Assembly (NCBI GenBank): GCA_964366415.1
Contig: CAYITG010000001.1
Span: 387,203-451,202, forward strand
Reading direction: 5' to 3'
Length of the DNA: 64,000 nt
Source of the DNA: Candidatus Woesearchaeota archaeon
GTDB taxonomy: Archaea; Nanobdellota; Nanobdellia; SCGC-AAA011-G17; UBA489
Every line of letters begins with the position of its first letter. Positions within the stretch are counted from its first letter, which is position 1. Below, in pieces: positions 4,363 through 56,420 of the stretch. The notes below the pieces were generated by a model, which was given only the letters and a program-made list of their open reading frames with translations, was not told the origin of the DNA and ran no database searches. The translations under genes and the position numbers were made by a program.

Positions 4363-4863
4363 ATGGCAATTTTCGCATTACGAACAACAAGCAACAGAGA
4401 AGATCAGGTATTTGATTTTGTCAGTTCTAATGTTGAAAAAAAGAACTTGGCTGTTTTAAGTTTGATCCGACCTCATGGCTTGAGAGGATATATTTTCATT
4501 GAAGTTGAAACTCGAGAAATTGCAGAAGAAGCCTATCACAAAGTGCCTTATGCACGCGGCATTTTACCAAAACCTGTTACTTATCAAGAGATTGAACATA
4601 TGCTCGAACAAGTCAGAGTACAGATGAATATCCAGAAAGGAGATATTGTTGAAGTCATCAGCGGACCTTTCAAAGGGGAACAAGCTAAGGTCAATAGAGT
4701 CGATCAGACTAAAGAAGAAGTTGTTGTTGAACTTTTAGAAGCAGCTATTCCTATTCCTATCACCGTCAAACTTGATTCCGTTAAGGTTATAAGGAGAGAT
4801 GAAAGCGGCAACAATAACAATATGAGCGCTGAAGAAAAAAGATCTGAGGAATCAAACCAATGA
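4363..4863 (+). CDS. spt5: Transcription elongation factor Spt5 (NusG homolog)
   Basis: NGN domain plus KOW motif GDIVEVISGPFKGEQAKV; TGA stop overlaps the L11 start as ATGA. Confidence 0.8.
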   Translation: MAIFALRTTSNREDQVFDFVSSNVEKKNLAVLSLIRPHGLRGYIFIEVETREIAEEAYHKVPYARGILPKPVTYQEIEHMLEQVRVQMNIQKGDIVEVISGPFKGEQAKVNRVDQTKEEVVVELLEAAIPIPITVKLDSVKVIRRDESGNNNNMSAEEKRSEESNQ

Positions 4864-5615
4864 CCAAATTACAACTCATCGTGGACGGAGGAAAAGCAAC
4901 GACAACTCCAGCCATGGCTCAAACGTTAGGGCCTATGAAAATTCCTCTTAATGAAGTTCTCGCCAAGATTAATGACAAGACTAAAGCATTCCAAGGCATT
5001 AAAGTGCCTGTTGAAGTGAATGTGAACGATAAAGACAAAACGTATGACGTCAAAGTAGGAAGTCCACCTGCTTCTGAACTTATTAAAAAAGAATTGAAAT
5101 TGGAAAAAGGAAGCGGAACGCCTAATCGAGAAAAACTTGTGAACCTTGGTGTTGAACAAGTGATCAAGATTGCACAGCAGAAAATGGATGGATTGTTGGA
5201 CAAGACGTTGAAAGCTGCTGTCAAAACTATTGCCGGAACATGCAACAGCATGGGATTATTGATTGAAGGCAAGACTAGTGATGCATTTACGAGAGATTTG
5301 GAAGCTGGCAAGTATGACCAAGAATTGAAAGAAGTAAAAATAGAGATTGCTCCTGAGAAGAAAGCACGCTTACAACAAGAATTACAAACTATCCAAGAAC
5401 GCTTACGCAAAGAACAGGAACGCTTGAAGGCTGAGGAAGAAGCGAAAGCCGCTGCAGTTGCTGCTGAGAAACCTGCTGAAGCTGCACCTGCTGAAGGCGC
5501 TACTAAAGAAGGAGAAAAGAAACCTGCTGAAGCTGGTAAGGCTCCTGCTGCCGGTGCAGAAAAGAAAGCTGCCGCTCCTGCTGCTGAGAAAAAAGCTCCT
5601 GAGAAAAAGAAATAA
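4860..5615 (+). CDS. rpl11: Ribosomal protein L11 (uL11) with a roughly 100-aa Ala/Lys/Glu/Pro-rich C-terminal extension
   Basis: N-terminal 150 aa align to archaeal L11 (GGKATTTP..., SPPASELIKK, GSGTPNREK). The C-terminal tail is low-complexity: AAEKPAEAAPAEGATKEGEKKPAEAGKAPAAGAEKKAAAPAAEKKAPEKKK. Confidence 0.8.
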   Translation: MTKLQLIVDGGKATTTPAMAQTLGPMKIPLNEVLAKINDKTKAFQGIKVPVEVNVNDKDKTYDVKVGSPPASELIKKELKLEKGSGTPNREKLVNLGVEQVIKIAQQKMDGLLDKTLKAAVKTIAGTCNSMGLLIEGKTSDAFTRDLEAGKYDQELKEVKIEIAPEKKARLQQELQTIQERLRKEQERLKAEEEAKAAAVAAEKPAEAAPAEGATKEGEKKPAEAGKAPAAGAEKKAAAPAAEKKAPEKKK

Positions 5616-12044: not shown

Positions 12045-12149
12045 GGGCCAGTAGTAGAACGGTTAATACGCCGCCTTCGCAAGGCGGAGACTTCGGGAAA
12101 TCTTTAACGGAGACGTTAAGATTCGAGAATTCAATTCCCGACTGGTCCA
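12045..12149 (+). tRNA. tRNA-Ala (anticodon CGC) with a 32-nt intron in the T-arm
   Basis: Acceptor GGGCCAG/CTGGTCC carries G3:U70; the anticodon arm CCGCC-TTCGCAA-GGCGG is perfect. T-stem 5' TCGGG and the 3' part TTCAATT-CCCGA are separated by 32 nt (about 12098-12129) containing the hairpin TTAACG-GAGA-CGTTAA. Confidence 0.6.
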
Positions 12150-16219: not shown

Positions 16220-16556
16220 TTACTTTCGCATCAAGGTAATCTCTATTGTGGAGACGCGCACTTGTCTTCCTTCGTCGTTCTTGAACTCTTCGCTGTTGAT
16301 ATTGATGTCTTTTACATTGATTTGATTTTCCAGAAAACGCTTGAGCGCTACTTCTGTGACATCTACTGCTTTGCTGATGAATTTTCCTCTTGCCTTGACC
16401 ACGATTTCAGGTGCTTGTTGGGTTGTGAATTGCATAACGACGCCAGTCACGTACTCTGAGAAAAAAGCTAGAGCTTTATTTTCTATTCATAAACGGCTTG
16501 GCGCCAATAAAAATGGTGTGGTCATCTTTTCTTGTTGTCTCTTGATTCTCTGTCAT
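16220..16556 (-). CDS. albA: DNA/RNA-binding protein Alba, interrupted by a 31-nt insertion (candidate intron)
   Basis: The N-terminal 24 codons (MTENQETTRKDDHTIFIGAKPFMN, GGAGG Shine-Dalgarno upstream) and the C-terminal 77 codons (YVTGVVMQF...GRQVRVSTIEITLMRK) each match Alba but lie in different frames. They are separated by 31 nt that contain a stop codon. Confidence 0.7.
16454..16484 (-). other. Candidate 31-nt intron in the Alba gene, possibly a bulge-helix-bulge type cut by the tRNA splicing endonuclease
   Basis: Deleting AGAAAATAAAGCTCTAGCTTTTTTCTCAGAG joins ...KPFMN to YVTGVV..., reproducing the Alba consensus KPVMNYV exactly. The insert folds as a hairpin (AGAAAA...TTTTCT outer stem, AAAGCT/AGCTTT inner stem). 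Confidence 0.45.
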
Positions 16557-16620
16557 TTTTTCCTCCTTGTCGTAGATAGATCTTACAAGAGGACGATTTA
16601 TTTAAACTTTATGTTCAGAA

Positions 16621-19845: not shown

Positions 19846-20400
19846 TTACTTTCGTACACGCAACATCATTGTTTTCTCTATGATTGCAACTTCTTCTTCG
19901 ACAGTCAGTACTCCAGAATTTAAGGCGATACCATAATGCGCAGCATCACGATAATCAAATTTATCTCCGTAGAGCTTTTTACCTATGCTTACTTCATCTT
20001 GCTCTCGTTCTTCTAAAATATGTTCAATCTCTGGAACAGATTTTCCAGGATATTTCTGCATGGTGTGTGCTCGCTGTGCTCTTATTTTCAGATCTGCTGT
20101 CACAAAGACTAACAAGCTCGGTAGATCTTTACAATACATTGAATATCGTGAGTCTCCGATGACATTTCCTCTTTTGAAGACTTCTCGTGCTTCAATGTTT
20201 TTTCGTTGTTGATCTCTTAGAGGCACACTTCTTCAGAACTCTTCGAAGGAAACATTTCCCTTAGGATATTTTTCTTTCCATTCATCTCTCCATATCTGAC
20301 CGATCGCATAAATGGGCCAATGATACATTTCTGAAAGTTTTTTAGCAAGCGTTGTTTTTCCTGAAAGAGGCAATCCAGAAAGAATTATGCTTGTCATCAT
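19846..20400 (-). pseudogene. cmk: Cytidylate kinase (archaeal Cmk) interrupted by an in-frame TGA
   Basis: N-terminal P-loop ORF MMTSIILSGLPLSGKTTLAKK...VSFEEF stops at TGA (20233-20235). The same frame continues into ...RDQQRKNIEAREVFKRGNVIGDSR..., which matches the central and C-terminal parts of archaeal Cmk. Confidence 0.6.
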
Positions 20401-20453
20401 TTTATTTTTTGATAGGAGTTAATCTTTTAAAGGTTCTCTCATTTTATATTACT

Positions 20454-25825: not shown

Positions 25826-25913
25826 CGTCACCCTCTTTTTGTTATTATACCTCTGGCAAGGCACTTTAAATACCTTTCTGTGAGAAAATGTATTTAAACA
25901 GCGAAAGAACGAT

Positions 25914-26477
25914 GTGTTTATGGAATATTTGAATAAGGGCAAACGTGGCGTTGTATATCTTGCTGAAGAACATGGCAAAAATGTAGTTGTTAAAAAAGAA
26001 CGACCTGGTAGTCAAGCATTGCGTGCATTGCATAATGAAGCTTATTGGATACAAGCGTTGAACAAACATAAGATTGGTCCTCGTTTTTACCGATTTGAAG
26101 ATTCCATGCTCGTCATGGAATACATTGAAGGCGTTCCTTTTGTTGCATGGTATCCTGATCAACCAAAGAAGAATGTTCATCGTGCACTCAAAGATATTTT
26201 TCAGCAATGCAGACAGATGGACCTTTTAAAGGTCAATAAATTTGAGATGCATTATCCTGTCAAACATATCCTCATGAGAAAAGGCAAACCAGTGATGATT
26301 GATTTTGAGCGTTGTAAAAGAACATTAACACCAAAGAATGTGACACAGTTTGCACAATTCTTGCTTACGCTGCAGTTTCCTGTTGATCGAGAAGCATTGA
26401 AAAGATTATTACAAGATTATAAGAAAACTTATCGTGAAGAGACGTTCATGAAGATCGTGCAGTTGTTTGTTTCTTAG
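25914..26477 (+). CDS. Bud32/RIO-like small protein kinase (possibly degenerate)
   Basis: N-lobe pattern (KGKRGVVYLAEE...VVVKKER...LVMEYIEG) and C-lobe VMIDFERC, but the canonical HGDLT catalytic loop is not evident. Confidence 0.4.
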   Translation: MFMEYLNKGKRGVVYLAEEHGKNVVVKKERPGSQALRALHNEAYWIQALNKHKIGPRFYRFEDSMLVMEYIEGVPFVAWYPDQPKKNVHRALKDIFQQCRQMDLLKVNKFEMHYPVKHILMRKGKPVMIDFERCKRTLTPKNVTQFAQFLLTLQFPVDREALKRLLQDYKKTYREETFMKIVQLFVS

Positions 26478-27804
26478 GTTTCTTTGGTTTCTTTTGTGGT
26501 TTTTGATTACTTAACAATTTCAAACGCAATAATGAATAATTTACCGGGTTCTTGATCTTTGAACAATAATTATCTGGCTTGCAGACTCCCATGGAGACAT
26601 AATAGGCGTCATTTGCGCAGTTGGGGGGAAGCATGATCTGCTGGTTGCGCTTATGCCAGCTAATTTGAGAGCGAACATAACCTTCACGTAACGGTTCGTA
26701 ATTTTTTTTGTTCCAGTCTAGTAACATCTGCTCTATTTCTTCCATGCCATATTTCATATGCTTCAGGAAGTTAATTAAAACCAAAATAGCTCGTTTTCTG
26801 CCATCTGTTGGCACTCCAGCAAGGAGTAATTTAATGCATGGTGGGAAGAGTTCTTCTGAAACTTTGGTTTTTGGCTCAAATGCCTGTTGTTTTTGGAACT
26901 GCTGTTTGTGCTCTTCTTCTTTTTTCTCCATGACAATGGCATTTTTCTTTGCATAATCAAATGCTTGAACCAGCAATTGACTTGCTTCCTGTTCTTGTGG
27001 GGTGGGCATGAATGGATAGACTTTCTCCACATTTTCTATCTTCGCTTGCGATGGACGGAATTGCTTGATCTTATCTGGAGTGATAACGACACTGATCATT
27101 CCTGATTTCTCATTGACAGAATAGGGTGATCGTACAAGATGGCGTGATGAAATTAAAATGGTATCAACATCGATCACTGCAAAAGGATCGAAGATATTTT
27201 TGACCATTAATTTTTCATAGGGAATGCCTGTTGCTTCGCTCATTTCTTTTGGTGTGCTGATAGCAAGAACAGCTGTCTTGAGTTGATCTTTGATTAATTC
27301 AGAAAGGTATTCGGCAATCATGCGCGGCCCTTCCGGAAATAATAGCTGCGTTTTCTTTGCATTGACGGTGGATGGGAATGATGCATAAGGTATTGCAAGG
27401 TGAAATCCACGATTTCCACTAAACTTGAGACCAATATTATTAATCTGGTGGAATTGCAAGGCTTCAATGAGCAATTGCGCCGTTATTTTTGAGAATTCAA
27501 TGAATTTACAATCGATATCTAAAATTAGATCCCAGCCAGAACGTAGTTCATCAAGGTCTTTTCTCGTCATACCTGTCTTTAATTTTAAAGGATCATGCCA
27601 GTGTTCTTCTGAAATATGAAATGAGGTTGCACCTTCTTGTGCTAATTCTTTGATATCTGATTCGTATTGAATAATGTCTGGACGTTTTCCGTAGCCACTT
27701 TCTCCAAACTTGACTGCCACTTCTCTATTTTTAGCAATAGACACTATTTCTGCTTGAACGTCCTTTCTACTATAATACTTTAGTATACGCGGATCAGCCC
27801 CCAT
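26446..27804 (-). CDS. priS: DNA primase: PriS catalytic domain fused to a PriL-like C-terminal Cys-cluster domain
   Basis: PriS motifs LILDIDCKF and SGNRGFHLAIPY; the C-terminal 150 aa (PPCIKLLLAGV...CANDAYYVSMGVCKPDNYCSKI) carry four Cys, resembling the PriL Fe-S domain. Confidence 0.7.
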   Translation of the reverse strand: MGADPRILKYYSRKDVQAEIVSIAKNREVAVKFGESGYGKRPDIIQYESDIKELAQEGATSFHISEEHWHDPLKLKTGMTRKDLDELRSGWDLILDIDCKFIEFSKITAQLLIEALQFHQINNIGLKFSGNRGFHLAIPYASFPSTVNAKKTQLLFPEGPRMIAEYLSELIKDQLKTAVLAISTPKEMSEATGIPYEKLMVKNIFDPFAVIDVDTILISSRHLVRSPYSVNEKSGMISVVITPDKIKQFRPSQAKIENVEKVYPFMPTPQEQEASQLLVQAFDYAKKNAIVMEKKEEEHKQQFQKQQAFEPKTKVSEELFPPCIKLLLAGVPTDGRKRAILVLINFLKHMKYGMEEIEQMLLDWNKKNYEPLREGYVRSQISWHKRNQQIMLPPNCANDAYYVSMGVCKPDNYCSKIKNPVNYSLLRLKLLSNQKPQKKPKKPKKQTTARSS

Positions 27805-27858: not shown

Positions 27859-28266
27859 TTATTGCTGAGAAGCTGTTTGGATGTCTTGGCGCAGTTTTTG
27901 AGCATGGGCCATCAATTTTTGTATTTCTGCTTGCATACTTTGTGTGATATTTTTCATTTCTTCAATCTGTTGATTCAACATTTTTTGAGCTTCAGGCAAG
28001 CTCTTTTTGACGAGCGTGTTTGCACCAACATTCATCAGCACTTCGTTTGGCTTTTCTAGGGTTGTTTCCATGGACATGCCGGGGCCTATTTGTGCGAACG
28101 CTTTTGCTTTTGGCTTTACTGCTTTCAAGCTTTCAAGATTTTCTACAACTGAAGAAATTTCCGTTGTCTGCTGTTCAAGAATATTTAACTGCTGGTGAAG
28201 AACTTTAATTTGCTGATCAACCATCTGGAATTCAACGATAGATTGTTGTATTTCTTCCTTTTTCAT
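27859..28266 (-). CDS. pfdA: Prefoldin alpha subunit
   Basis: Coiled coil-beta hairpin-coiled coil layout and the position after L14e in the ribosomal protein cluster. Confidence 0.7.
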   Translation of the reverse strand: MKKEEIQQSIVEFQMVDQQIKVLHQQLNILEQQTTEISSVVENLESLKAVKPKAKAFAQIGPGMSMETTLEKPNEVLMNVGANTLVKKSLPEAQKMLNQQIEEMKNITQSMQAEIQKLMAHAQKLRQDIQTASQQ

Positions 28267-28637
28267 TATTTCCTAGATGGTTTTTCAGATTTCTTTTTTT
28301 CTTTCTTTGTCTCTTTTTTTGCTTCTTTTGGTTTTTCTGGTGCTGCTTTCTTTATGTTCCTTACATGCTGCGGTTTTGGACCTTTTTGTTTCTTTGTTTT
28401 TGGTTCGACAATTTCTATCTTTAGACTCTTGAATTCCTTGACCACTTCTGCATGAGGTGCATTCTTCTTTAATTTTAACATCTTTGATGTTGGTTCAAGA
28501 TGAAGAATGTTACAACGCTTTCTTTTGACTTGACCATCAATCGTGACAAATTTATTATCTCCCGTATCAACTATCACAACCATTTTTCCCGCGTCTTTTC
28601 CAGCGGTTTTCACACAAACTCTTCCGATGTCTAGCAT
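28266..28637 (-). CDS. rpl14e: Ribosomal protein L14e
   Basis: KOW-like N-terminus GRVCVKTAGKDAGKMVVIVD followed by a Lys-rich tail. Confidence 0.8.
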   Translation of the reverse strand: MLDIGRVCVKTAGKDAGKMVVIVDTGDNKFVTIDGQVKRKRCNILHLEPTSKMLKLKKNAPHAEVVKEFKSLKIEIVEPKTKKQKGPKPQHVRNIKKAAPEKPKEAKKETKKEKKKSEKPSRK

Positions 28638-28646
28638 ATGTTCACC

Positions 28647-28895
28647 TTATATGGATCTCGCCTTCTCCACCATCATTGATTGCAAGCAATTGAAGCACAT
28701 CACTCCTCCAAATGCACGCTGAGGACGTTTCTTTGACTTTGTTGCGCTTGCTGATACTCCCTGCAAGATCTTTCTGCAAGAAGCACATACTGGCCTGCTT
28801 GATTTCTTTTCGGTGTAATGCGTTACTACTCTCCCGCCAGGTACTTTTCTCTTATGTCTATTCAACTTACGTGATCTGTGTTGTGGGCTTGGCAT
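28647..28895 (-). CDS. rpl34e: Ribosomal protein L34e
   Basis: MPSPQHRSRKLNRHKRK N-terminus and a C4 zinc ribbon. Confidence 0.8.
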   Translation of the reverse strand: MPSPQHRSRKLNRHKRKVPGGRVVTHYTEKKSSRPVCASCRKILQGVSASATKSKKRPQRAFGGVMCFNCLQSMMVEKARSI

Positions 28896-28908
28896 GAGAG
28901 AACCTCGA

Positions 28909-29382
28909 TTAAGAGACTTTTAAAAGCTTTCTGAAAAGCGTATTTGTGACTAAAGATGTTAAAATATATGTCCACAACCAACCAATGCCTATGCCAAAAA
29001 AGGGTATTTTGAAACCCCATGCAAATAAGTCACCAGCCGGAAGATAGGTTGCGCGCAACCATGAGAACAGGATAAGGACAGGAATAAGCGTGTACAAAGA
29101 CGGCCACATCGTATGCCTCATCAACGGCCAATTCTTTTTCATCAATTGCGTGTTGAGATCCATTACTTTTTCTTTATTGTCTCTATTCTTTTTTATTTCT
29201 TCTTGTAATATTTTAATTTCGTCGCGCAATGCTTTGATTGCTTGCTGATTTGATAGATATTTATATGCGATGGTGATCAGAAATGTGATCAATATTGAAA
29301 TGACAATAAGACTCAGTTGAGGCGGAAGATTATTTGTTAAAGGCGAAAAAATAACATCCAAGATTGGTTTAACAATAGCCAT
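28909..29382 (-). CDS. DUF106-family membrane protein (EMC3/TMCO1/YidC-like insertase homolog)
   Basis: Three transmembrane helices with a central coiled coil, in the conserved position downstream of SecY. Confidence 0.6.
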   Translation of the reverse strand: MAIVKPILDVIFSPLTNNLPPQLSLIVISILITFLITIAYKYLSNQQAIKALRDEIKILQEEIKKNRDNKEKVMDLNTQLMKKNWPLMRHTMWPSLYTLIPVLILFSWLRATYLPAGDLFAWGFKIPFFGIGIGWLWTYILTSLVTNTLFRKLLKVS

Positions 29383-29383
29383 T

Positions 29384-30790
29384 TTATTCTCCCATCATCT
29401 TACGCAAGGCAGGGTGCATGTCCACCATGTGCTGCTGCGCAACTTCTTCATATAACTTATAGATAATCATCACTGTTAATAAAATGCTCGTTCCGTTGAC
29501 AAGAGCTCCAGAAATGTCTGCAAGAGCTGCAAGAATACCTATACTTAGTCCTCCCAATACAGTCAAGGGAAAGATGTATCTGCTTAAAATTTGTTCTAAC
29601 ACGCGTGGATCTCGTCTAAATCCGGGCACTTGCAATCCTGATGCGAGGATTTGTTTTGCTTGCGATGATGCATCCATTCCTGATGTCTGCACCCAGAACA
29701 CGGAGAACAGAACGGCACCGCCGATTAAAAATATTGCGTATGTTGCTGCGTGAGCAATATCAGCGAAACGTAATGAGCTTGTGATTAATCCTTGTATTAC
29801 GTTCGGAGGAGTAATCCACAAGACAAATCCTGATGCAGGCGTATTTCCTACATAAGTTCCTAAGAACGGATGACCCCAGTTCTCCAATAATCGCGCCCAT
29901 AATTGGAAATTAGCAATCAAGGCAGCTGTCAAGATAACAGGAATATTTGATGTGTAAAGGAAACGAAGTGGCCATCGAATACCATGACCCCGCACTCTTC
30001 CAAATGATAAGGGAATTTCAATTTTCATAGCCTGCGTATAGACTGATATGACAAACACAATAATTGTTGCAAGAATTGCTGATAATGCAAGGACTGCGCC
30101 TAAAGGATTTCTGCTAATTAATGAGGAAAACAGTACCCATACCTGACCGACAGGAGCTTCTCCCGTACCAAAAGCTAGTGTTCCTGCACTTGTCAAAGGA
30201 GAGAACGCGCGAATGAATAATGAAGCTGAAACTCCTGCTGCGATGAACAAGGACACGCCAGACCCAAATCCATATTTGCTTGTTACTTCATCCATGTATA
30301 ATACTAAGACGCCACCTAAGCATAATTGAAGGACTAAGAGGAATTGATAAGAAGTGTATGCGGCTGTTCCTAATAATGCTTGCGAAGGAGCAAGACCGCC
30401 CATGAATACATAGATTGCGGCTTCAAAGACAATAAAGAAGAGCGTCAATACTTTGTTGAGGCCTTGGAAATATGCGCGTCCTTCTTTGCTTGTTGTATCA
30501 ATTTTAAGGATGCCAGAACCGGCAAGCAATTGCAAGACGATGGAAGCTGTGACGATAGGACCAATACCCAAAGAAAGAATGGATCCGAAGCTTGCACCTA
30601 AGATGACTGATAATGATTCAAATTGCGATAATGCATTTTCTCCCAATCCGAACAAAGGAATAGAAGAAAGAACAAAAAATGCGACAAGAATAATCAATGT
30701 CCATTTTAGTTTTGTACCAAATGACAGGCGTTGTTCTGTTGGTTTTCTTACTTCCGGCAAAAATTCTAAGATGCGTTCGAAAAATCCCAT
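29384..30790 (-). CDS. secY: Protein translocase subunit SecY
   Basis: Ten-transmembrane SecY/Sec61-alpha pattern, 468 aa, after L15. Confidence 0.9.
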   Translation of the reverse strand: MGFFERILEFLPEVRKPTEQRLSFGTKLKWTLIILVAFFVLSSIPLFGLGENALSQFESLSVILGASFGSILSLGIGPIVTASIVLQLLAGSGILKIDTTSKEGRAYFQGLNKVLTLFFIVFEAAIYVFMGGLAPSQALLGTAAYTSYQFLLVLQLCLGGVLVLYMDEVTSKYGFGSGVSLFIAAGVSASLFIRAFSPLTSAGTLAFGTGEAPVGQVWVLFSSLISRNPLGAVLALSAILATIIVFVISVYTQAMKIEIPLSFGRVRGHGIRWPLRFLYTSNIPVILTAALIANFQLWARLLENWGHPFLGTYVGNTPASGFVLWITPPNVIQGLITSSLRFADIAHAATYAIFLIGGAVLFSVFWVQTSGMDASSQAKQILASGLQVPGFRRDPRVLEQILSRYIFPLTVLGGLSIGILAALADISGALVNGTSILLTVMIIYKLYEEVAQQHMVDMHPALRKMMGE

Positions 30791-30791
30791 T

Positions 30792-31199
30792 TTATTGAGG
30801 TACTTCTACTTTTCCCCCTGCTTTTTCGATTTTTTCCTTTGCTCTTTGCGAGCAGGCTTCTACAACAATATGATATTTACGCTGAGGCGTACCTCGAGCA
30901 AGAAGTTTATTCACGCCCCGTTCTGTAAGATTAACTTTTTCTTCATGGGGCAATTCGTCGATATTCATAATGGTGACATGCTTGACAACTTCGGGTGGGC
31001 GCGTGAATCCATGCTTGCCAAAATATTCAGGTCCGAATTCCTTGAGAATCCATGTTTTACGCTGATCGGCACGCTTCCCAGAACCCGCCATACCGCGTCC
31101 GCCACGATTACCTGCTCCGCGGTGCTTCTTCATACTGCCGAAGCCGTATGTTGTTTTTCCACGGAAACGTTTGTTCTTTTTACGGTGACGTACGACCAT
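30792..31199 (-). CDS. rpl15: Ribosomal protein L15 (uL15)
   Basis: Gly/Arg-rich N-terminus (GAGNRGGRGMAGSGKRADQRK). Confidence 0.85.
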   Translation of the reverse strand: MVVRHRKKNKRFRGKTTYGFGSMKKHRGAGNRGGRGMAGSGKRADQRKTWILKEFGPEYFGKHGFTRPPEVVKHVTIMNIDELPHEEKVNLTERGVNKLLARGTPQRKYHIVVEACSQRAKEKIEKAGGKVEVPQ

Positions 31200-31200
31200 G

Positions 31201-31719
31201 TTAAATCATCCTTTGTATTAAATCATTAATTTTATTTTTACGATATCCCAATGCACCACCCATTGAAAATTGAGTTTTGATGCCTTTGCGTTCAAAACCA
31301 CGACGTGGTGGGCTTAGTTTAAAGAATGTTTTCAAGCCTGGCACTTCTTTTAATTCTGCTTTGAATTCCATGAATTTTTTAGAGAATTCTTCTAATCCCA
31401 TTTTCATTTTTTCTTTGAGATATATTTCTGTTAATGGTTCTTTGCCTGGCAACTTGCCTCTTTTTTCCAACAATAATTTGAATGTTGGTTCATCTATTTC
31501 TCCCCAGGTGGCTGCATTTTTTATTACATTTAACATGCCCAAATATGGTGCAGTATTGGGAACAACCACGCAATGGTTCTTCTTGTAGAGACATAATAAG
31601 TCAAACGTCTTTCTCATATCTACTTTCATTCCAGGAGTTCCTTTTATTCTGATGATTGCAACACGTGCGCTCTTCTGCTGCACAGCTTCTTTCATTTCTT
31701 TGTTTTGTGCAGGCATCAT
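31201..31719 (-). CDS. rpl30: Ribosomal protein L30 (uL30)
   Basis: Ferredoxin-like L30 core (VAIIRIKGTPGM...TFDLLCL) and position in the cluster. Confidence 0.85.
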   Translation of the reverse strand: MMPAQNKEMKEAVQQKSARVAIIRIKGTPGMKVDMRKTFDLLCLYKKNHCVVVPNTAPYLGMLNVIKNAATWGEIDEPTFKLLLEKRGKLPGKEPLTEIYLKEKMKMGLEEFSKKFMEFKAELKEVPGLKTFFKLSPPRRGFERKGIKTQFSMGGALGYRKNKINDLIQRMI

Positions 31720-32489
31720 TTGTTACCTTCCTTTATGCCTAAGGTCTTGACGTATTCTTGTTTGATTTTGATTTGTGATAATTTTATTAATGCATCCATG
31801 CATGCTTTGACAAGATTTAATTTTGTTCTTGTGCTGTGATGTGTGGCAGTATAAATATCCCTGATACCTGCGAGTGCAAGAATTTTACTACATTCTTTTT
31901 CTGCACAAATGCCCGTACCTTTTGGCGCTGGCATGAGTTCGATGCTGACAGAACCACATTTTCCTTTGATCTTGAATGGAATGGAGTGAGGAGTTCCACA
32001 GCCACATTCCCATGATCCACAGCCTCGTCGTACTTTAATCAGGTTTATTTTTGCCTGACGGACTGATTTTTCTCGTGCAGGAACTGTTTCCTTTGCTTTT
32101 CCTAATCCAATACCAACGTATCCATCCCTATTTCCTATAATCGCTACGGCAGAAAATTTAGGTTTATTTCCTTCGCTTGTTTTCTTCTGTGTTTGACGCC
32201 AAATGCTTCTCTTTCCACCACCAAATTTACCTTTGGACTGACCGACAGACACTAAATCGACCTGCATGTTCGGCAACAAGAAATCAACTATTTCTCCTTC
32301 CATGATGCGCATACCGCTATCAAGAATCGTGTCAATATCTGTAATTCCTCCAGATTTGACTTTTGTTCCAATGGCTGTTTTTGGATGCCACGCTTCCCTA
32401 TCAAATGGTTTCTCCCTTGAGAAGCCACGTTTTTCGATAGGAACATTGCGTACTTCTGCACTTTCCGAAGGTTTTATGTCGTCTGTCAT
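31716..32489 (-). CDS. rps5: Ribosomal protein S5 (uS5)
   Basis: S5 dsRBD plus C-terminal domain (KGKFGGGKRS..., GIRDIYTA). Confidence 0.85.
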   Translation of the reverse strand: MTDDIKPSESAEVRNVPIEKRGFSREKPFDREAWHPKTAIGTKVKSGGITDIDTILDSGMRIMEGEIVDFLLPNMQVDLVSVGQSKGKFGGGKRSIWRQTQKKTSEGNKPKFSAVAIIGNRDGYVGIGLGKAKETVPAREKSVRQAKINLIKVRRGCGSWECGCGTPHSIPFKIKGKCGSVSIELMPAPKGTGICAEKECSKILALAGIRDIYTATHHSTRTKLNLVKACMDALIKLSQIKIKQEYVKTLGIKEGNK

Positions 32490-32992
32490 TTCTTTGTTGA
32501 TGCGTCTATTTTTGTTTTAACTTCTTGGAAGGGAATTTGTGTTTTGAGATGCTTTCCCTGAATGCGATCAGCAGAAGGCATCAATTCTGTTGAATGTGGA
32601 ATGTCCAATCCTGCATCAACTGCTCCCTTCAAACATGAGAACAGGATGGATCCTTTCGTAATGCTTTGCAAGCCAATGTCACAAATGGCTTTCTTAATGT
32701 TTTTTTGCTGGGCTTTTTTCCCCATGAGGTATCCTGCAAAGTATGCCGCTGGTGTGTTGCGTGATGCAAATTTCCAGCCATATTTCTTTTGCAATTCTTT
32801 TGTTGTGGTTGCACAAAGCACATGGTCTCCTTGAGGACTGTATTCTATTAATTGCACAGAGATATTTTTCAATGATTTCCTGACTACGAAACGCGGCAGA
32901 CGCGATGTAATCATGCGTAACCGTTTTTGGTAGTTTGTTTTACCTTCTCTATGTCTTCTTTTCTGAAGACCGTGTCTTCTTTTGAGTTTCAT
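32486..32992 (-). CDS. rpl18: Ribosomal protein L18 (uL18)
   Basis: KRRHREGKTNYQKRLRM motif. Confidence 0.85.
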   Translation of the reverse strand: MKLKRRHGLQKRRHREGKTNYQKRLRMITSRLPRFVVRKSLKNISVQLIEYSPQGDHVLCATTTKELQKKYGWKFASRNTPAAYFAGYLMGKKAQQKNIKKAICDIGLQSITKGSILFSCLKGAVDAGLDIPHSTELMPSADRIQGKHLKTQIPFQEVKTKIDASTKK

Positions 32993-33437
32993 GGTGACCT
33001 AATTTATGTTCCTCCAAGTATAATTTAATGTGACGTTTGCTTCTAAAGAACCCTCCTTTTGCCTTCTTATAAAGCATATGGTAGGTTTCTGTTTTGATGA
33101 GCTCTTTATCACGAAGGAGCTTCAAGAATCCACGTTGAATACGAATTCTATGCGCCCAGTCTTGTTTCATATTTTTACGAGCTGTCTTTTTTCCTTTTCT
33201 GGAGCCCATTCCTCGCTGACGTCCTTTTCTTTTTTGGATAAGATTCTTACGGAATCGACCATGTGAAATGGACACTTTAGGGCGTTTTTGAATTGCCTTA
33301 TCATGAATTAAGTGACGAATGTCTGCTTTCGTGATGGCTTGCTTGATTTCTTCCATTCGGGCATTATCAAACCATACTCTTCCCTGGCCACATTTCATCA
33401 CTTGAGCTGCAATTCTGCGTTGTGAGGTGAGTCTCAT
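32949..33437 (-). CDS. rpl19e: Ribosomal protein L19e
   Basis: MRLTSQRRIAAQVMKCGQGRVWFD N-terminus. Confidence 0.85.
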   Translation of the reverse strand: MRLTSQRRIAAQVMKCGQGRVWFDNARMEEIKQAITKADIRHLIHDKAIQKRPKVSISHGRFRKNLIQKRKGRQRGMGSRKGKKTARKNMKQDWAHRIRIQRGFLKLLRDKELIKTETYHMLYKKAKGGFFRSKRHIKLYLEEHKLGHHETQKKTRSSEKKT

Positions 33438-34000
33438 TTTTTCTGCTCCAACAGTTTACGCTTTTCTTCTTTCTCACGTTTTTCTTTTTCTTCTGGAACT
33501 TCTTCTTTCTTTTCTTCCACTTTTTCAGCTTTCTTCAAGCGCTCTGCTTTCGCTTTTTCTTTTCTTGTAAGCTTTGATTTCTTGGTTTCTTTGCGTTGTT
33601 TTAATGATGCTTCAGTTTCTGCAAGGAATTTGTCCAGATCTTTGATGTTGAGAACTCGCAGTTTCATTTCTTTTGCTTTCTTGACAATTTCTATTCTTTT
33701 TCGCATTCCTACTGTGGATGCAATCGTGATAGGATCTTTGACCCCTGTTAATTGTGCGACATTTGATATTATAATAACTTGGTAACCATCACGCGTCAAA
33801 CCACGCACTTCTTTTGGAGAGGAGAATCCTATGGATGGTTGCCGACGAAGACTTCGTAACTTCAACCGCATCTTAGAATGCATACCCTCAGGTTTACGCC
33901 AGTGTCTCTTAATACGGATTGCTTTTTGCCAGTCCTGTCTAATGAACTCCGGCATTTTCTTTTTCAATGCGTTTCTTTTTTCTAGCAATTCCTTATTCAT
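33434..34000 (-). CDS. rpl32e: Ribosomal protein L32e with a Lys/Glu-rich C-terminal extension
   Basis: L32e core (RQDWQKAIRIKRHWRKPEGMHSKMR) plus a roughly 55-aa tail (KETKKSKLTRKEKAKAERLKKAEKVEEKKEEVPEEKEKREKEEKRK). Confidence 0.85.
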   Translation of the reverse strand: MNKELLEKRNALKKKMPEFIRQDWQKAIRIKRHWRKPEGMHSKMRLKLRSLRRQPSIGFSSPKEVRGLTRDGYQVIIISNVAQLTGVKDPITIASTVGMRKRIEIVKKAKEMKLRVLNIKDLDKFLAETEASLKQRKETKKSKLTRKEKAKAERLKKAEKVEEKKEEVPEEKEKREKEEKRKLLEQKK

Positions 34001-34581
34001 ATGAAATTCCGTCCTGGTTTTTCAGTGATATAACAACCATCTTGGAAGACGCGGCGGTCACGCTTTCCGACGCGTGTTGCCTGCTCAAGATTTGCGGCAG
34101 TTTGACCTGCTGCTTCAAGATCAAAGGATTGAACAAGAATCGCATCTTTGTCTATTTTTACCGTTACGTTGGGTAAAACCTTAGATTTACGTGGAATCTT
34201 TTCCCCAAGGAAGTTTGAGATCGTAACATATTGTCCTTCCACTTTTATAGTGATAGGGAAGTGGCCTGAACAGATTTTTAACTTATATTGGTAAGGATTT
34301 TGTACGCCTTGTATCATGTTGTTAATGTGTGATTTAATGGTGTATAACATGCGTTTTTGTTTACGCAAGGAAGATGATGTAGAGAGCGTAATAGTATTGT
34401 TTTCTTCTTTTATTGTGACTAACGGATTTCCAACCATACGTTGAAGAGTGCCCAGTTTACCTTTGACAGACAATATGTGCCCGTCTAATGTAGCTTCAAT
34501 ACCTTGCGGCACAGTTACTGTTTCTTCTATTTTTCTTGCCACTTGTTCTGGTTGTTTTTTCATCTTAGTAGAAGTATGCAA
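33997..34581 (-). CDS. rpl6: Ribosomal protein L6 (uL6)
   Basis: Two L6 alpha/beta repeats; position in the cluster. Confidence 0.85.
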   Translation of the reverse strand: MHTSTKMKKQPEQVARKIEETVTVPQGIEATLDGHILSVKGKLGTLQRMVGNPLVTIKEENNTITLSTSSSLRKQKRMLYTIKSHINNMIQGVQNPYQYKLKICSGHFPITIKVEGQYVTISNFLGEKIPRKSKVLPNVTVKIDKDAILVQSFDLEAAGQTAANLEQATRVGKRDRRVFQDGCYITEKPGRNFI

Positions 34582-34954: not shown

Positions 34955-34962
34955 TTTTTCTC

Positions 34963-35193: not shown

Positions 35194-35194
35194 C

Positions 35195-36402: not shown

Positions 36403-36403
36403 T

Positions 36404-44575: not shown

Positions 44576-45280
44576 ATGTGGAATTATGATCATCTTCTTA
44601 CCTCTCACAGTCATAATATTTTAAAGATTAAAACACCAAGACATAATAGAAATCTTGCAGAATTCTTAGGCATCTTATTTGGTGATGGCAGCAGTTATCG
44701 ACGAGAAATTGGGAAAAAGATTCGAGATTACCAAATTCGTATTGCTGGTCATTCAAGCAATGATAAAGATTATCTTATAAATTTTGTTAAACCACTTGCC
44801 AAAGATTTATTTGGGATAGAAGGAAAGATACATCCTCATTATAATGAAGACATCAACTGTTTGTATTTGAAACTTAATGGTAAGTTACTTTCTTATTTTT
44901 TAGAAAATATTGGTTTTCCTCCAGGAAATAAAATAAAGAATAGATTAGTGATTCCTAATTGGATTAAAACAGACACCTCTTATTTAACAGCATTTTTAAG
45001 AGGTTTAGTTGATACTGATGGTTCTATTTATAGGATGTCGAATAAGGATCCGCAACTCATACGTTTGGCCATTAAAAATTTTATACCTGGATTTTTAGAT
45101 AGTTTAAATTCGTGTTTACAAGAACTGGAATTTCATCCATGCATTATTCGATCAAGTAGTCAGATTTTTCTTTCTAGGAAGGAAGATATACAGAAATATA
45201 CTAAGAAAATAGGTTTTAATAACCCAAAACATATATATAGGTTTAGAGCACTTTCTAAAAATATTAGCCCCGTAGTGTAG
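44576..45280 (+). CDS. Double-motif LAGLIDADG endonuclease-like protein (paralog A)
   Basis: Two LAGLIDADG motifs (LGILFGDGSS and LRGLVDTDGSIY) about 100 aa apart; the last 15 nt overlap the 5' end of the downstream tRNA. Confidence 0.75.
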   Translation: MWNYDHLLTSHSHNILKIKTPRHNRNLAEFLGILFGDGSSYRREIGKKIRDYQIRIAGHSSNDKDYLINFVKPLAKDLFGIEGKIHPHYNEDINCLYLKLNGKLLSYFLENIGFPPGNKIKNRLVIPNWIKTDTSYLTAFLRGLVDTDGSIYRMSNKDPQLIRLAIKNFIPGFLDSLNSCLQELEFHPCIIRSSSQIFLSRKEDIQKYTKKIGFNNPKHIYRFRALSKNISPVV

Positions 45281-45371
45281 TGGCCTATAACCCTTAGGGT
45301 TGGCAAAGCACGCGAGACTCTGGTAGCGATGGGGATATCTCGCAACGGAAGTTCAAATCTTCCCGGGGCTA
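45266..45371 (+). tRNA. tRNA-Gln (anticodon CTG) with two putative introns
   Basis: Acceptor AGCCCCG/CGGGGCT. D-stem GTGT/GCAC flanks a 29-nt D-loop that contains the hairpin TAACCC-TTA-GGGTTG (about 20 nt extra). Anticodon stem CGAGA/TCTCG with loop CTCTGG, a 13-nt insert (TAGCGATGGGGAT) at 37/38, then A; T-arm GGAAGTTCAAATCTTCC. Confidence 0.55.
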
Positions 45372-46241
45372 CTTCTTTGTTACTTCTCTTATTACAACTT
45401 CAATTTCATGTGTTTTAAGAGGCGAATAATATCTTTCGCTTACATCAATTTTTACTCCATCTGGACTATGGCGTGGTAACACGCCAAGAAGGTCTACAAT
45501 TCCATTATCTCCCGTCACAATAATTTGGGTATTCCCTGTTCCTGCCGCATTTGCTAGAGCGTATGCAGTGAGAAGATTATCTACACCGCCCGTATTAATT
45601 CGATTCGATTCTGCTATTTGCGTACTGTATTGTAAGACTGGATCTACTTTACATCTATTAAGCATTTTTAATGTTTCATCTCTTTGACATGCACACCCCA
45701 TTTGTCTTGCAAGACGGGATTTTTCTATAAAATATCTTTCCATCATTTTTTTGTACGAACCATTCTGCGTTTCCATCCTTTTTTTAAGACATCTATCATC
45801 TCCTGTAATGTATTCTTCTAATATTTCTGGGAGAATAGTTACGTCGTTGCGATGAATTAATCTCTCTAGTTCATTGAATTGTAATTCCTGCACTTTTTGA
45901 AATTCATACCATAATTCATCATACTCTTGGCCTATACCGGCTAGGCCAGATGCACAAGCATTAAGAAACGATGCATTGCTAAGGCGCAGATTTCTCTCTC
46001 CACATTGACCATAGATATGACTTGACTCTAACAAAAAAGAGGTGTCTAGCCAGTAATGTTTTGTTCCATCTCGTTCTTCAAAAATACTTTTGTACACTTC
46101 TAGAAATTCTGCAGGATGAATTGATATCCGCAGGCTTGAAAATCCTTTAATTGGTTCTGCTGTTTTATGGAAAGAATGATCATCTATGTAAAAACCAAAG
46201 TCTTCTAAACATGTTTTGTGTCTTTTTGTTGTCTCTGTCAT
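45369..46241 (-). CDS. Hypothetical protein
   Basis: 290-aa ORF with no recognisable motif; a NYN/LabA-like C-terminus is considered separately in the findings. Confidence 0.3.
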   Translation of the reverse strand: MTETTKRHKTCLEDFGFYIDDHSFHKTAEPIKGFSSLRISIHPAEFLEVYKSIFEERDGTKHYWLDTSFLLESSHIYGQCGERNLRLSNASFLNACASGLAGIGQEYDELWYEFQKVQELQFNELERLIHRNDVTILPEILEEYITGDDRCLKKRMETQNGSYKKMMERYFIEKSRLARQMGCACQRDETLKMLNRCKVDPVLQYSTQIAESNRINTGGVDNLLTAYALANAAGTGNTQIIVTGDNGIVDLLGVLPRHSPDGVKIDVSERYYSPLKTHEIEVVIREVTKK

Positions 46242-51350: not shown

Positions 51351-52427
51351 TTGATGAATTATAAAGAAGAAGTTTTTGGAGGACTTGATTCGAGTAGGAG
51401 ATATCACCCTGAAAGAATTCTACCAAAAACTAAAATTGCAATTCTTTCTCCCAATACTTCGACAGAAGTTCTTGGAAATTTACAACCTGATGAAGTTGCT
51501 GTCATCCCTTATACTCTTGTTCCTTATGGCTATCGTGAAGGGCCTGAGGCTAGAGAAACCTTTCCTAGGTTCTTGAAGAGAGGACCAACTGTTCAGATTC
51601 CCACACCAAAAACACTTGAGGAAGCACTTGAAGGAACAGGACCAACACGAAAACGATTTGAAATTTATCAGAAGTTGCATGATCCTCACAGCGAATTGAT
51701 TGCTGCAGGCATGTCATGGTATTGCCCGCAAGACCGCATGCATCGCAAAGTGAGTGCGCATGACGTTTTAGAAGGCATGATGCTTTATGCGTTCTCAGAA
51801 TTCGAAAGATCATTATCGCCCACACAGAATAAAACACATCTTATTTCTGTGCATCAATATGGTGTTGACAAAGAGAATAAAGAGACAGGGGCGAGTGTTG
51901 TTGTGGATGTTCCTTCTCGCAGCCGCAATGCCCGTTATCGCGTTAAGCTTCATCATTTTCCCTTCTTAGGATCAGATGATGTGTGGGTGTGGATGCAACT
52001 ACAAAGCGAGCATAGTGAATGCGGAAGCAAAGACTTTGGCGATATCTATTGGCAGCGTGATGAAGAAAGTAAAAAAAGAAGAAAGTTACATGATATTGTT
52101 TTTTGTCCTCATGATGTTGCTGCGTATTTAGCAGTATCTGCTGAAGAAACACAACGGGTTATTAAAGAACAAGCTCATCCTTCAAAAAAAATAACCTTGC
52201 AGCCTTTTCCCCTTTTTACACAACATACTGTTAATTTTTGGAAGAAATTATGCACACAGACTTTTTTTGGGTCACCCTTATCAACACGGCCTCTGCGAGA
52301 ATATGAAATTGAGCTTGAGCTTCAACGCTTTTTAGCTCGACAAGGACAAGATTCTCAAAAAACAATGTATACTTCTGATAAAATAAGAGATTATAACTGG
52401 GAACCTTCCCTTCCCTTAAAAGGATGA
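51351..52427 (+). CDS. Hypothetical protein (orphan)
   Basis: 358-aa ORF, Cys/His-containing, no recognisable family. Confidence 0.35.
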   Translation: MMNYKEEVFGGLDSSRRYHPERILPKTKIAILSPNTSTEVLGNLQPDEVAVIPYTLVPYGYREGPEARETFPRFLKRGPTVQIPTPKTLEEALEGTGPTRKRFEIYQKLHDPHSELIAAGMSWYCPQDRMHRKVSAHDVLEGMMLYAFSEFERSLSPTQNKTHLISVHQYGVDKENKETGASVVVDVPSRSRNARYRVKLHHFPFLGSDDVWVWMQLQSEHSECGSKDFGDIYWQRDEESKKRRKLHDIVFCPHDVAAYLAVSAEETQRVIKEQAHPSKKITLQPFPLFTQHTVNFWKKLCTQTFFGSPLSTRPLREYEIELELQRFLARQGQDSQKTMYTSDKIRDYNWEPSLPLKG

Positions 52428-55965: not shown

Positions 55966-56061
55966 CGCCTCGAGAAGGATTTGAACCTTCGACCACATGG
56001 TTAACAGCCATTTGAGCCATAGATTTTCTATGTGTGCTCTACCGAGCTGAGCTATCGAGGC
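55966..56061 (-). tRNA. tRNA-Asn (anticodon GTT) with an intron of about 20-22 nt in the anticodon stem
   Basis: Acceptor GCCTCGA/TCGAGGC with discriminator G; canonical D-arm GCTC-AGCTCGGTA-GAGC. Removing about 56012-56033 (ACATAGAAAATCTATGGCTCAA, hairpin CATAG-AAAAT-CTATG) gives the anticodon arm CATGG-CTGTTAA-CCATG, followed by variable TGGTC and T-arm GAAGGTTCAAATCCTTC. Confidence 0.55.
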
Positions 56062-56099: not shown

Positions 56100-56420
56100 C
56101 TATGAGGCGCGTCGTATACGCTTCCAGAATGAGAGGGCTAATCCGCCAAAAAGGATTGCGATAATTAAACTCCAGGAGAATGGAACTACTAACAACCCAA
56201 TATTAACCTGCCACTGATAAAGGATTCTCCAGATATGAAAAACAGCTATAACTGTGAAAATAATCGCTGTTATTTTATCGAGAAGCAACACATCCTCTTT
56301 TTGCTTTTTTACCATAGGAAAAATAATATTCTCTTCTATAAAAATGTTATCTTTCTGGAAAATATGAAGATAATTTCGGTTTTTTCTTAAAAATACATTT
56401 AAAGAAAAGATATCTATCAC
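56100..56420 (-). CDS. Hypothetical membrane protein
   Basis: Two or three transmembrane helices; no motif. Confidence 0.3.
   Translation of the reverse strand: MIDIFSLNVFLRKNRNYLHIFQKDNIFIEENIIFPMVKKQKEDVLLLDKITAIIFTVIAVFHIWRILYQWQVNIGLLVVPFSWSLIIAILFGGLALSFWKRIRRAS

What the first reader, a model, noticed from the sequence alone, without database searches (positions are those of the whole stretch)
16220..16556. Alba gene split by a 31-nt hairpin insert whose removal restores the conserved sequence (candidate mRNA intron)
The minus-strand Alba gene reads MTENQETTRKDDHTIFIGAKPFMN, then 31 nt (AGAAAATAAAGCTCTAGCTTTTTTCTCAGAG, about 16454-16484) carrying a TAA in every useful frame, then YVTGVVMQF...GRQVRVSTIEITLMRK in a different frame. 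Deleting exactly these 31 nt yields KPFMN-YVTGVV, which is the Alba consensus KPVMNYVLAAL. The insert is not a multiple of 3 and folds into a stable hairpin (AGAAAA/TTTTCT outer stem, AAAGCT/AGCTTT inner stem). The flanking exons contain complementary GGCGCC/GGCGTC segments that could form a long-range helix. Archaeal mRNA introns cut by the tRNA splicing endonuclease are known for very few genes, cbf5 being the classic case. An Alba intron would be unusual. It fits with the many non-canonical tRNA introns in this window.
Basis: partly seen in the sequence, partly recalled or inferred. Interest (0 to 1): 0.8.

Follow-up and report, generated by a model that had tools for sequence, protein, structure and literature searches.

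The report
Spliced mini-intron inside archaeal Alba gene
The gene for the chromatin/RNA-binding protein Alba in this tiny DPANN archaeon is interrupted by a 31-base hairpin that has the features of an intron cut out by the tRNA-splicing enzyme; such introns were previously reported in only one archaeal protein gene (cbf5), and relatives carry the same kind of insert at the same spot.

Summary
On the minus strand, a 72-nt exon 1 (16556-16485), a 31-nt insert (16484-16454) and a 234-nt exon 2 (16453-16220) join into a 101-aa full-length Alba protein. A syntenic, uninterrupted ortholog lacks exactly these 31 nt. The insert is not an assembly artefact: 8 independent assemblies carry the identical gene. 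It is not a pseudogene either: dN/dS is 0.02-0.15 among 15 insert-bearing orthologs with complete genes. The two junctions deduced from protein homology fall where the archaeal splicing endonuclease would cut a relaxed bulge-helix-bulge (BHB) motif. Only about 2 in 10,000 random placements do as well. Three intron-bearing tRNAs lie in the same window, and the two checked closely have introns of the same build. Public data hold 17 other distinct inserts of 27-34 nt at the same MN|YV codon junction of Alba genes in Nanoarchaeota/Woesearchaeota. All have in-frame stops, their hairpins covary strongly, and exon silent sites are tuned to an exon-exon helix. A variant has two introns separated by a 4-nt micro-exon. 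Public annotation calls these genes truncated "DNA-binding proteins". Splicing itself is inferred, not shown. I found no report of it in the searchable literature. Verdict: reader supported; a new member of a known kind.

The parts
16485..16556 (-). Alba exon 1 (24 codons, MTENQETTRKDDHTIFIGAKPFMN); GGAGG Shine-Dalgarno at 16566..16562
16454..16484 (-). 31-nt intron: A (third bulge nt) + hairpin GAAAA-UA-AAGC-UCUA-GCUU-UUUUC + UCAG (3' strand of the central helix) + AG (first two nt of the 3' bulge)
16220..16453 (-). Alba exon 2 (77 codons plus stop, YVTGVVMQF...ITLMRK*)
16487..16490 (-). Central helix H, 5' strand AUGA (last exon 1 bases before the bulge); pairs with UCAG at 16459..16456 (3 Watson-Crick pairs plus A.G; a full 4 bp in relative L040)
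16484..16486 (-). 5' three-nt bulge A-U|A; predicted 5' cut between 16485 and 16484
16460..16483 (-). Inner intron hairpin h' (GAAAA/UUUUC plus AAGC/GCUU, loop UCUA)
16456..16459 (-). Central helix H, 3' strand UCAG (intron)
16453..16455 (-). 3' bulge A-G|U, relaxed (lies opposite two unpaired U's); predicted 3' cut between 16454 and 16453
16476..16478 (-). In-frame UAA two codons after the 5' junction; it ends translation of unspliced mRNA after 26 aa
16493..16506 (-). Exon 1 strand of the exon-exon outer helix (UGGCGCCA 16506..16499 and CCGU 16496..16493)
16438..16452 (-). Exon 2 strand of the exon-exon outer helix (ACG 16452..16450, G 16448, UGGCGUCG 16445..16438)

Best explanation
The 31 nt are a bulge-helix-bulge (BHB) intron in the Alba pre-mRNA of a DPANN archaeon (Nanoarchaeota/Woesearchaeota). 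It is of the relaxed HBh' type. Proposed mechanism follows. The transcript folds so that the last exon 1 bases (AUGA) pair with UCAG near the intron's 3' end, forming the 4-bp central helix. A conserved exon-exon helix (UGGCGCCA:UGGCGUCG and CCGU:ACG) and the intron's own hairpin flank this helix. That leaves AU|A and AG|U as the two 3-nt bulges. The archaeal RNA-splicing endonuclease (EndA) cuts after the second base of each bulge. An RtcB-type ligase then joins AAU to UAC and restores KPFMN-YVTGVV, giving the 101-aa Alba protein. Ribosomes on unspliced mRNA stop at UAA two codons past the junction. Shown here: the anatomy; the exact match between homology-defined junctions and geometry-defined cut sites; the family of homologous introns with covariation; purifying selection on exons and on intron stems; and reproducibility across assemblies. 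Inferred: that EndA and RtcB act on this RNA, and any regulatory role.
For: Removing the 31 nt restores a complete Alba domain and a nearly invariant motif with M-N|Y invariant in 120/120 homologs. The syntenic ortholog L001 lacks exactly these 31 nt. The BHB rule places both cuts at the homology junctions, which only 27 of 127,840 random placements match. Forcing the BHB conformation costs 0.6 kcal/mol. In the same window, tRNA-Ala(CGC) and tRNA-Asn(GUU) carry introns of the same build at non-canonical positions. Removing them by the same rule gives clean cloverleafs. There are 18 distinct inserts of 27-34 nt at the same codon junction in intact Alba genes from many projects, all with in-frame stops and with lengths of 0, 1 and 2 modulo 3. 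In the 13 class I introns, 81.9% of cells pair versus 64.8% in shuffles (0/500) and 21-50% when partners are slid; 6 of 6 hairpin pairs show compensatory changes. Exon silent sites (Pro third base: Tyr third base) pair in 11/13 split genes versus 19/51 intron-less genes. dN/dS is 0.02-0.15 among split genes. Between the window and L040, dS is 1.78, yet the intron is identical at 26/31 positions; the changes are confined to the loop plus one that repairs the A.G in the central helix. Eight independent assemblies are identical. DPANN endonucleases with the L3 loop are associated with many disrupted tRNA genes (PMC5829648).
Against: There are no transcript data, so splicing is inferred. The motif is relaxed: the central helix has 3 Watson-Crick pairs plus A.G, and the 3' cut site lies in a 2x3 internal loop rather than a clean bulge. 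The simple BHB score does not pick a unique solution in this AT-rich sequence. For example, a 22-nt alternative (16478..16457) scores similarly but would add 3 residues inside the conserved motif. Overall folding energy is not exceptional (z = -1.74). No EndA or RtcB gene was found among the 40 window ORFs scanned. I could not check for a second, intact Alba gene elsewhere in the genome; there is none in the 64 kb.
Confidence: 0.85

Rival explanations
1. Disrupted gene or pseudogene: the insert killed the gene, and either only the exon 2 stub (as public annotation calls it) or nothing is made.
For: Public annotation calls only a 71-aa exon 2 ORF. An in-frame UAA follows the junction.
Against: dN/dS is 0.02-0.15 across both exons among insert-bearing genes at saturated dS. 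Exon 1 keeps its start codon, Shine-Dalgarno sequence and conserved residues in all lineages. The intron stems are more conserved than silent sites. There are 18 distinct inserts, all with BHB geometry and covariation. No other Alba gene lies in the window.
Confidence: 0.03
2. Translational bypass (as in phage T4 gene 60) or programmed frameshift: ribosomes skip or shift over the hairpin without any RNA splicing.
For: A hairpin with a stop codon soon after the take-off point resembles gene 60. In the window, the exon 2 frame is open through the insert.
Against: There are no matching take-off and landing codons: AAU versus GAG in the window, and AGU, GGU or GCG elsewhere. Insert lengths are 0, 1 and 2 modulo 3, and all have in-frame stops, so no single frameshift works. 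A frameshift would put 10 residues inside the conserved motif. Neither model explains the conserved central helix, the cut-site geometry or the exon-exon helix.
Confidence: 0.04
3. Regulatory hairpin, terminator or attenuator within the gene that is not removed.
For: In the window, the hairpin is followed by a run of six U's.
Against: Most homologous inserts have no U run. An unremoved insert always stops translation in the conserved motif, yet exon 2 is under strong purifying selection.
Confidence: 0.03
4. Assembly or sequencing artefact.
For: None found.
Against: Eight assemblies from different samples and assemblers carry the identical 337-nt gene. Related but different inserts occur in many projects.
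Confidence: 0.005

Closest known systems
cbf5 pre-mRNA intron of Crenarchaeota (Watanabe 2002; Yoshinari 2006; Yokobori 2009, PMC2738675)
   Same: [quoted passage not shown] Its distribution is patchy, with gain and loss among relatives. It is linked to endonucleases of broad specificity.
   Different: The gene is different (Alba, not the pseudouridine synthase Cbf5) and so is the superphylum (DPANN, not Desulfurococcales/Sulfolobales). Three insertion registers lie within 6 nt. There is a tandem two-intron form with a 4-nt micro-exon. Splicing of cbf5 was shown experimentally; here it is inferred.
Non-canonical BHB introns of archaeal tRNA genes (HBh'/hBH types; Crenarchaeota, ARMAN, other DPANN)
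   Same: The build is identical to the tRNA-Ala and tRNA-Asn introns in this window: a 4-bp helix between exon 1 and the intron's 3' end, 3-nt bulges, an inner hairpin and a weak outer helix.
   Different: The host RNA is an mRNA. The outer helix is made from coding sequence, and it is kept by choice of synonymous codons.
HAC1/XBP1 unconventional mRNA splicing (IRE1 endonuclease plus tRNA ligase/RtcB) in eukaryotes
   Same: A protein enzyme cuts a small intron out of an mRNA at stem-loop-defined sites without a spliceosome, and an RNA ligase of the tRNA pathway joins the ends. Removal changes the reading frame.
   Different: The nuclease and recognition motif are different. That system is a stress-regulated switch, and no regulation is shown here. 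This comparison rests on general knowledge.
Phage T4 gene 60 translational bypass
   Same: A short, non-coding hairpin-containing gap inside an ORF with a stop codon right after the break.
   Different: The matched take-off and landing codons that define bypassing are absent. BHB geometry and covariation are unexplained by bypassing.

Membership tests
Archaeal BHB (splicing-endonuclease) intron | A 4-bp central helix flanked by two 3-nt bulges on opposite strands, each 3' of its helix strand (or the accepted relaxed forms HBh'/hBH) | tested here: met
   Met in the relaxed HBh' form. Window: AUGA:UCAG (3 Watson-Crick pairs plus A.G), a strict 5' bulge AUA, and a 3' AGU opposite UU. L040 has 4/4 pairs. 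Central-helix cells are 81% paired across the family.
Archaeal BHB (splicing-endonuclease) intron | Cuts after the second nucleotide of each bulge give a functional mature RNA | tested here: met
   The geometry-predicted cuts equal the homology-defined junctions. The product is full-length Alba with MN|YV restored.
Archaeal BHB (splicing-endonuclease) intron | Helices maintained by compensatory change among homologs | tested here: met
   33 double-change cells versus 10.3 in shuffles (0/500), and 6 of 6 hairpin pairs covary. A compensatory CCG:ACG versus CCA:AUG change lies in the exon helix.
Archaeal BHB (splicing-endonuclease) intron | The same genome splices BHB introns at non-canonical positions | tested here: met
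   tRNA-Ala(CGC) intron 12098..12129, tRNA-Asn(GUU) intron 56033..56012, and tRNA-Arg(UCU) with two introns.
Archaeal BHB (splicing-endonuclease) intron | The host encodes EndA (broad-specificity type) and an RtcB ligase | not tested
The literature reports L3-loop EndA in DPANN, including a Woesearchaeota genome (PMC5829648).
Archaeal BHB (splicing-endonuclease) intron | Spliced RNA or excised (circular) intron observed | not testable with these tools
   No transcript data are available.
cbf5 intron lineage | Located in the cbf5 gene of Desulfurococcales/Sulfolobales | tested here: not met
   The host gene is Alba (PF01918) in Nanoarchaeota/Woesearchaeota MAGs. It is the same kind of element but not the same lineage.
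Self-splicing group I / group II intron | A ribozyme core of hundreds of nt that matches Rfam models | tested here: not met
   The insert is 31 nt, and no relevant Rfam match appears even at E <= 10.
Translational bypass (gene 60 type) | Identical or cognate take-off and landing codons flanking the gap | tested here: not met
   AAU versus GAG in the window; no match in any of the 18 inserts.
Programmed ribosomal frameshift | A consistent frame offset, and read-through product tolerated | tested here: not met
   Lengths are 0, 1 and 2 modulo 3, and all have in-frame stops.
Alba protein family (PF01918) | A full-length domain match above the gathering score | tested here: met
   54 bits versus a cut-off of 25, profile positions 1-65 of 66, only after removing the 31 nt. 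6874 homologs were found.

The most novel reading that the evidence does not exclude
The Alba introns may be more than tolerated parasites. The KPFMN|YV site is a hot spot with three insertion registers within 6 nt and a tandem two-intron form. The intron stems are more conserved than silent sites, and exon codons are tuned to the splice helix. Together these features would fit a dosage-control device, in which splicing, possibly influenced by the RNA-binding Alba protein itself, sets how much of this abundant chromatin/RNA protein is made. They would also fit mobile BHB introns that target this sequence. Either reading would make endonuclease-mediated mRNA splicing a regular layer of gene expression in DPANN archaea.
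Probability: 0.15. Interest if true: 0.85.

Novelty: new member of a known kind. Interest (0 to 1): 0.66.

Why it matters
Introns that the tRNA-splicing endonuclease removes from archaeal messenger RNAs have rested on one gene (cbf5) in one phylum for over twenty years. The 2018 and 2025 endonuclease papers I read still cite only those three cbf5 studies. If the Alba intron is spliced as the evidence indicates, there is a second, unrelated gene in a very different branch of the archaea (DPANN). It comes with enough natural variants to define what an mRNA substrate needs: 18 single-intron sequences, two cut registers and a two-intron form with a 4-nt micro-exon. It also has a practical side. 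Gene callers annotate these essential chromatin-protein genes as 71-74 aa stubs, so genome-based inventories of DPANN archaea may undercount intact genes wherever such mini-introns occur. The groundwater sites that yielded these genomes could be tested directly with metatranscriptomes.

Tried and rejected
(1) A scan of the window for other protein genes split by a BHB-compatible insert gave 808 raw candidates. The best ones, 25889..25868(-) and 56379..56413(+), are hairpins upstream of signal-peptide starts with junk upstream translation. Two others (51540..51577+, 20389..20422+) were translated out of phase and not pursued. No second case was found, but sensitivity is limited.

(2) An alternative 22-nt splice (16478..16457; AGAA:UUCU, 4/4) would give FMNRKEYV. 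I rejected it because every one of the 120 homologs has MN|Y uninterrupted and the ortholog gap is exactly 31 nt.

(3) Of the 81 collection hits, 55 were uninterrupted genes matched through an upstream ATGAAY, and L031 and L033 were chance matches outside Alba.

(4) The exact look-up of the 76-aa GTG-start ORF found nothing. The 71-aa ATG-start ORF is the one on record.

(5) LAGLIDADG association with split Alba loci: 3 distinct hits in about 100 kb of split loci versus 2 in about 350 kb of intron-less loci. That is too few to conclude anything.

(6) No copy of the insert lies elsewhere in the window at up to 3 mismatches, and there is no notable similarity to the tRNA introns, so there is no sign of recent intron transposition within the 64 kb.

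(7) One structure string could not serve both cut registers, because MAFFT shifts class II by one column. The classes were therefore analysed separately.

Full report
**Observation.** It starts with ATG at 16556 behind a GGAGG Shine-Dalgarno sequence. Then come 24 codons ending KPFMN (to 16485), 31 nt (AGAAAATAAAGCTCTAGCTTTTTTCTCAGAG, 16484..16454), and 77 codons from YVTGVV to a stop at 16220 in another frame. Joining the two coding parts gives a 101-aa protein that matches Pfam Alba over profile positions 1-65 of 66 at 54 bits. Exon 2 alone reaches 34.9 bits over positions 19-65. The joined protein has 6874 database homologs, the best at 90% identity and also 101 aa. Named ones are Alba proteins of Nanoarchaeota and Woesearchaeota metagenome-assembled genomes (MAGs). 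All 120 closest homologs have M-N|Y invariant at the junction and read KP(F/L/M)MN|Y(V/I)T(G/S)... without interruption. One minor correction: only the exon 1 frame is stopped inside the insert (AGA AAA TAA). The exon 2 frame is open through it.

**Not an artefact, not a dead gene.** The closest homolog sits on a contig with the same downstream Na/H-exchanger gene. Its DNA aligns with the window with a single clean 31-nt gap between ATGAAT and TAY. The gene as annotated publicly is an exon 2-only stub of 71 aa (MEK6839369.1, 'DNA-binding protein', Nanoarchaeota MAG, longest contig 814 kb). Seventeen contigs carry it. In eight assemblies from different samples and assemblers, the whole 337-nt gene including the insert is identical. 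dN/dS against the intron-less ortholog is 0.07/1.51, with the same pattern in both exons. There is no second Alba gene in the 64 kb.

**Structure and cut sites.** In a BHB substrate the endonuclease cuts after the second base of each 3-nt bulge, and each bulge lies 3' of one strand of a 4-bp central helix. This is established knowledge (summarised in PMC5829648). I also validated it here on the window's own tRNAs, as described below. In the minimum-free-energy fold, UGA of exon 1 pairs with UCA near the intron's 3' end. AUA is a 3-nt bulge, the intron forms a hairpin (GAAAA/UUUUC, AAGC/GCUU), and the exons pair over 12 bp (UGGCGCCA:UGGCGUCG and CCGU:ACG.G). Read as a BHB, this gives AUGA-AU|A...UCAG-AG|U. 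The predicted cuts are therefore exactly the two junctions deduced independently from protein homology. Only 27 of 127,840 31-nt placements in the window do as well. Forcing the BHB conformation costs 0.6 kcal/mol. The motif is relaxed: the central helix has A.G plus 3 Watson-Crick pairs, and the 3' site sits in a 2x3 loop. The simple score also admits other solutions in this AT-rich stretch, including a 22-nt one. Overall stability is ordinary (z = -1.74). The geometry is therefore consistent and improbable by chance, but it is not decisive on its own.

**The same genome uses such introns.** Rfam finds two over-long tRNAs. Applying the same cut rule removes 32 nt after the 5' strand of the T-stem of tRNA-Ala(CGC) (12098..12129; UUCG-GG|A...CGAG-AA|U). 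It also removes 22 nt from the anticodon stem of what is really tRNA-Asn(GUU) (56033..56012; GAGC-AC|A...GCUC-AA|A). Both products fold into clean cloverleafs. A third gene (45266..45372) becomes tRNA-Arg(UCU) after two removals. The tRNA-Ala and tRNA-Asn introns have the same build as the Alba insert.

**A family of Alba introns.** I scanned the genome and metagenome collections for the MN and YVTGVVMQ codons separated by 14-44 nt. This returned 81 loci. Fifty-five were uninterrupted genes matched through an upstream ATGAAY, and two were chance matches. The rest are Alba genes interrupted at the same place. Counting the window, there are 18 distinct single inserts of 27-34 nt (lengths 0, 1 and 2 modulo 3). 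Every one has an in-frame stop two to five codons after the junction. In every complete gene the exons are intact.

The inserts fall into two registers. Class I (14 inserts, 13 distinct cut-site sequences analysed) is cut one base earlier: YAUG-AA|U...C.U.-NG|U. Class II (the window, L040, L021, L059) is cut after AAY. On cut-site-anchored alignments, the class I structure pairs in 81.9% of cells, against 64.8% in shuffles (0/500) and 21-50% when partners are slid. There are 33 double-change cells against 10.3 expected. All six hairpin pairs covary. Class II has only four sequences and pairs in 80.4% of cells.

The outer helix is made of coding sequence. The third base of the Pro codon pairs with the third base of the Tyr codon in 11 of 13 class I genes, but in only 19 of 51 intron-less genes (39% expected under independence). 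The intron-less ortholog L001 lacks that helix.

**Selection.** Among 15 insert-bearing genes with complete sequences, dN/dS is 0.02-0.15 at saturated dS. The window and L040 differ at 35 of 77 third codon positions (dS 1.78), and their downstream intergenic DNA cannot be aligned. Their introns are nonetheless identical at 26 of 31 positions. The five differences are the four loop bases and a G-to-U change that turns the A.G of the central helix into A-U. A crude tree puts the intron-less L001 next to the window's gene inside class II, which suggests precise intron loss. Class I genes are scattered among intron-less ones.

**Two-intron form.** L007/L039, L050, L095 and L096 have a 69-70 nt interruption. 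It resolves into two BHB introns (32-33 nt and 31 nt) around a 4-nt micro-exon...CCUUUUA|intron 1|UGAA|intron 2|U UAY.... Splicing both restores KPFMNYV. In the unspliced RNA, the central helix of intron 2 (ACUG:CAGU) uses the last two bases of intron 1. The hairpins differ by compensatory changes among the four sequences. Within six bases of this gene there are thus three insertion registers.

**Rivals.**
- A pseudogene is excluded by the selection data.
- An artefact is excluded by the eight identical assemblies.
- Ribosomal bypass lacks matched take-off and landing codons.
- Frameshifting cannot cope with lengths in all three classes modulo 3, all with in-frame stops.
- A self-splicing intron is excluded by size and by the lack of any Rfam match.
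- A terminator reading fits only the window's U run.

**What is known.** Searches of the open-access library found no report of an Alba intron. The 2018 and 2025 endonuclease papers cite only the three cbf5 studies for pre-mRNA BHB introns. The cbf5 paper describes relaxed motifs, gain and loss, and a link to broad-specificity endonucleases in Crenarchaeota. Kaneta et al. 2018 report L3-loop alpha4 endonucleases in DPANN lineages together with many disrupted tRNAs. Subscription-only literature could not be searched.

**Verdict.** I rate the BHB-intron explanation at 0.85. It is a new member of a known kind: the second protein-gene family with such an intron, in a different superphylum, with unusually rich comparative support. 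Still missing are a spliced transcript and the enzymes of this genome. None of the 40 window ORFs scanned is EndA or RtcB.

Noticed in passing
L007/L039, L050, L095, L096 (related loci): Alba genes with two BHB introns (32-33 nt and 31 nt) separated by a 4-nt micro-exon UGAA. Splicing both restores KPFMNYV. Intron 2's central helix borrows the last two bases of intron 1. The exon 2-only protein cluster for this form has 22 members on many contigs.
   Followed up: partly
window 12045-12149 (+), intron 12098-12129: tRNA-Ala(CGC) with a 32-nt intron right after the 5' strand of the T-stem (a non-canonical position). The spliced form is a clean 73-nt cloverleaf. ARAGORN's default run missed this gene.
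   Followed up: yes
window 55966-56061 (-), intron 56033-56012: ARAGORN calls this gene tRNA-Phe(aaa). It is really tRNA-Asn(GUU) with a 22-nt intron in the anticodon stem. The spliced form is a clean 74-nt cloverleaf.
   Followed up: yes
window 45266-45372 (+): A third disrupted tRNA. Removing a ~23-nt insert in the D-loop region (about 45283-45305) and a ~15-nt insert in the anticodon loop (about 45323-45337) gives tRNA-Arg(UCU). The exact boundaries are not settled.
   Followed up: partly
window 44576-45277 (+), 50165-51163 (+), 55107-55889 (-): Three free-standing LAGLIDADG-domain ORFs, each next to a tRNA gene; two of those tRNAs carry introns. LAGLIDADG ORFs also occur near some Alba loci (L036 is 214 nt upstream of a split Alba; also L011, and the intron-less L014 and L060). 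The numbers are too small to claim a link with intron mobility.
   Followed up: partly
window 16476-16478 and all 18 inserts in related loci: Every Alba insert has an in-frame stop 2-5 codons after the 5' junction, including the two whose length is a multiple of 3. Many class I hairpins share the motif UAAGUUAA.UCUU, which supplies that stop.
   Followed up: partly
window 16220-16435 (-): Public annotation (MEK6839369.1 and similar) records only a 71-aa exon 2 stub as 'DNA-binding protein'. In related loci, gene callers also predict a 30-32 aa exon 1 stub. Split Alba genes are thus mis-annotated in databases.
   Followed up: yes
window 26449-27804 (-): A single 452-aa ORF matches both the small and the large DNA primase subunit domains (a fused primase).
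   Followed up: no
window 4860-5612 (+): The ribosomal protein L11 ORF is 251 aa. The L11 domains cover residues 5-133, and the C-terminal ~118 residues have no Pfam match.
   Followed up: no
window 28000-43000 (-): A run of short, closely packed minus-strand ORFs lies here. I took it to be a ribosomal-protein operon from its layout alone; these ORFs were not scanned against Pfam or checked by homology for small introns.
   Followed up: no
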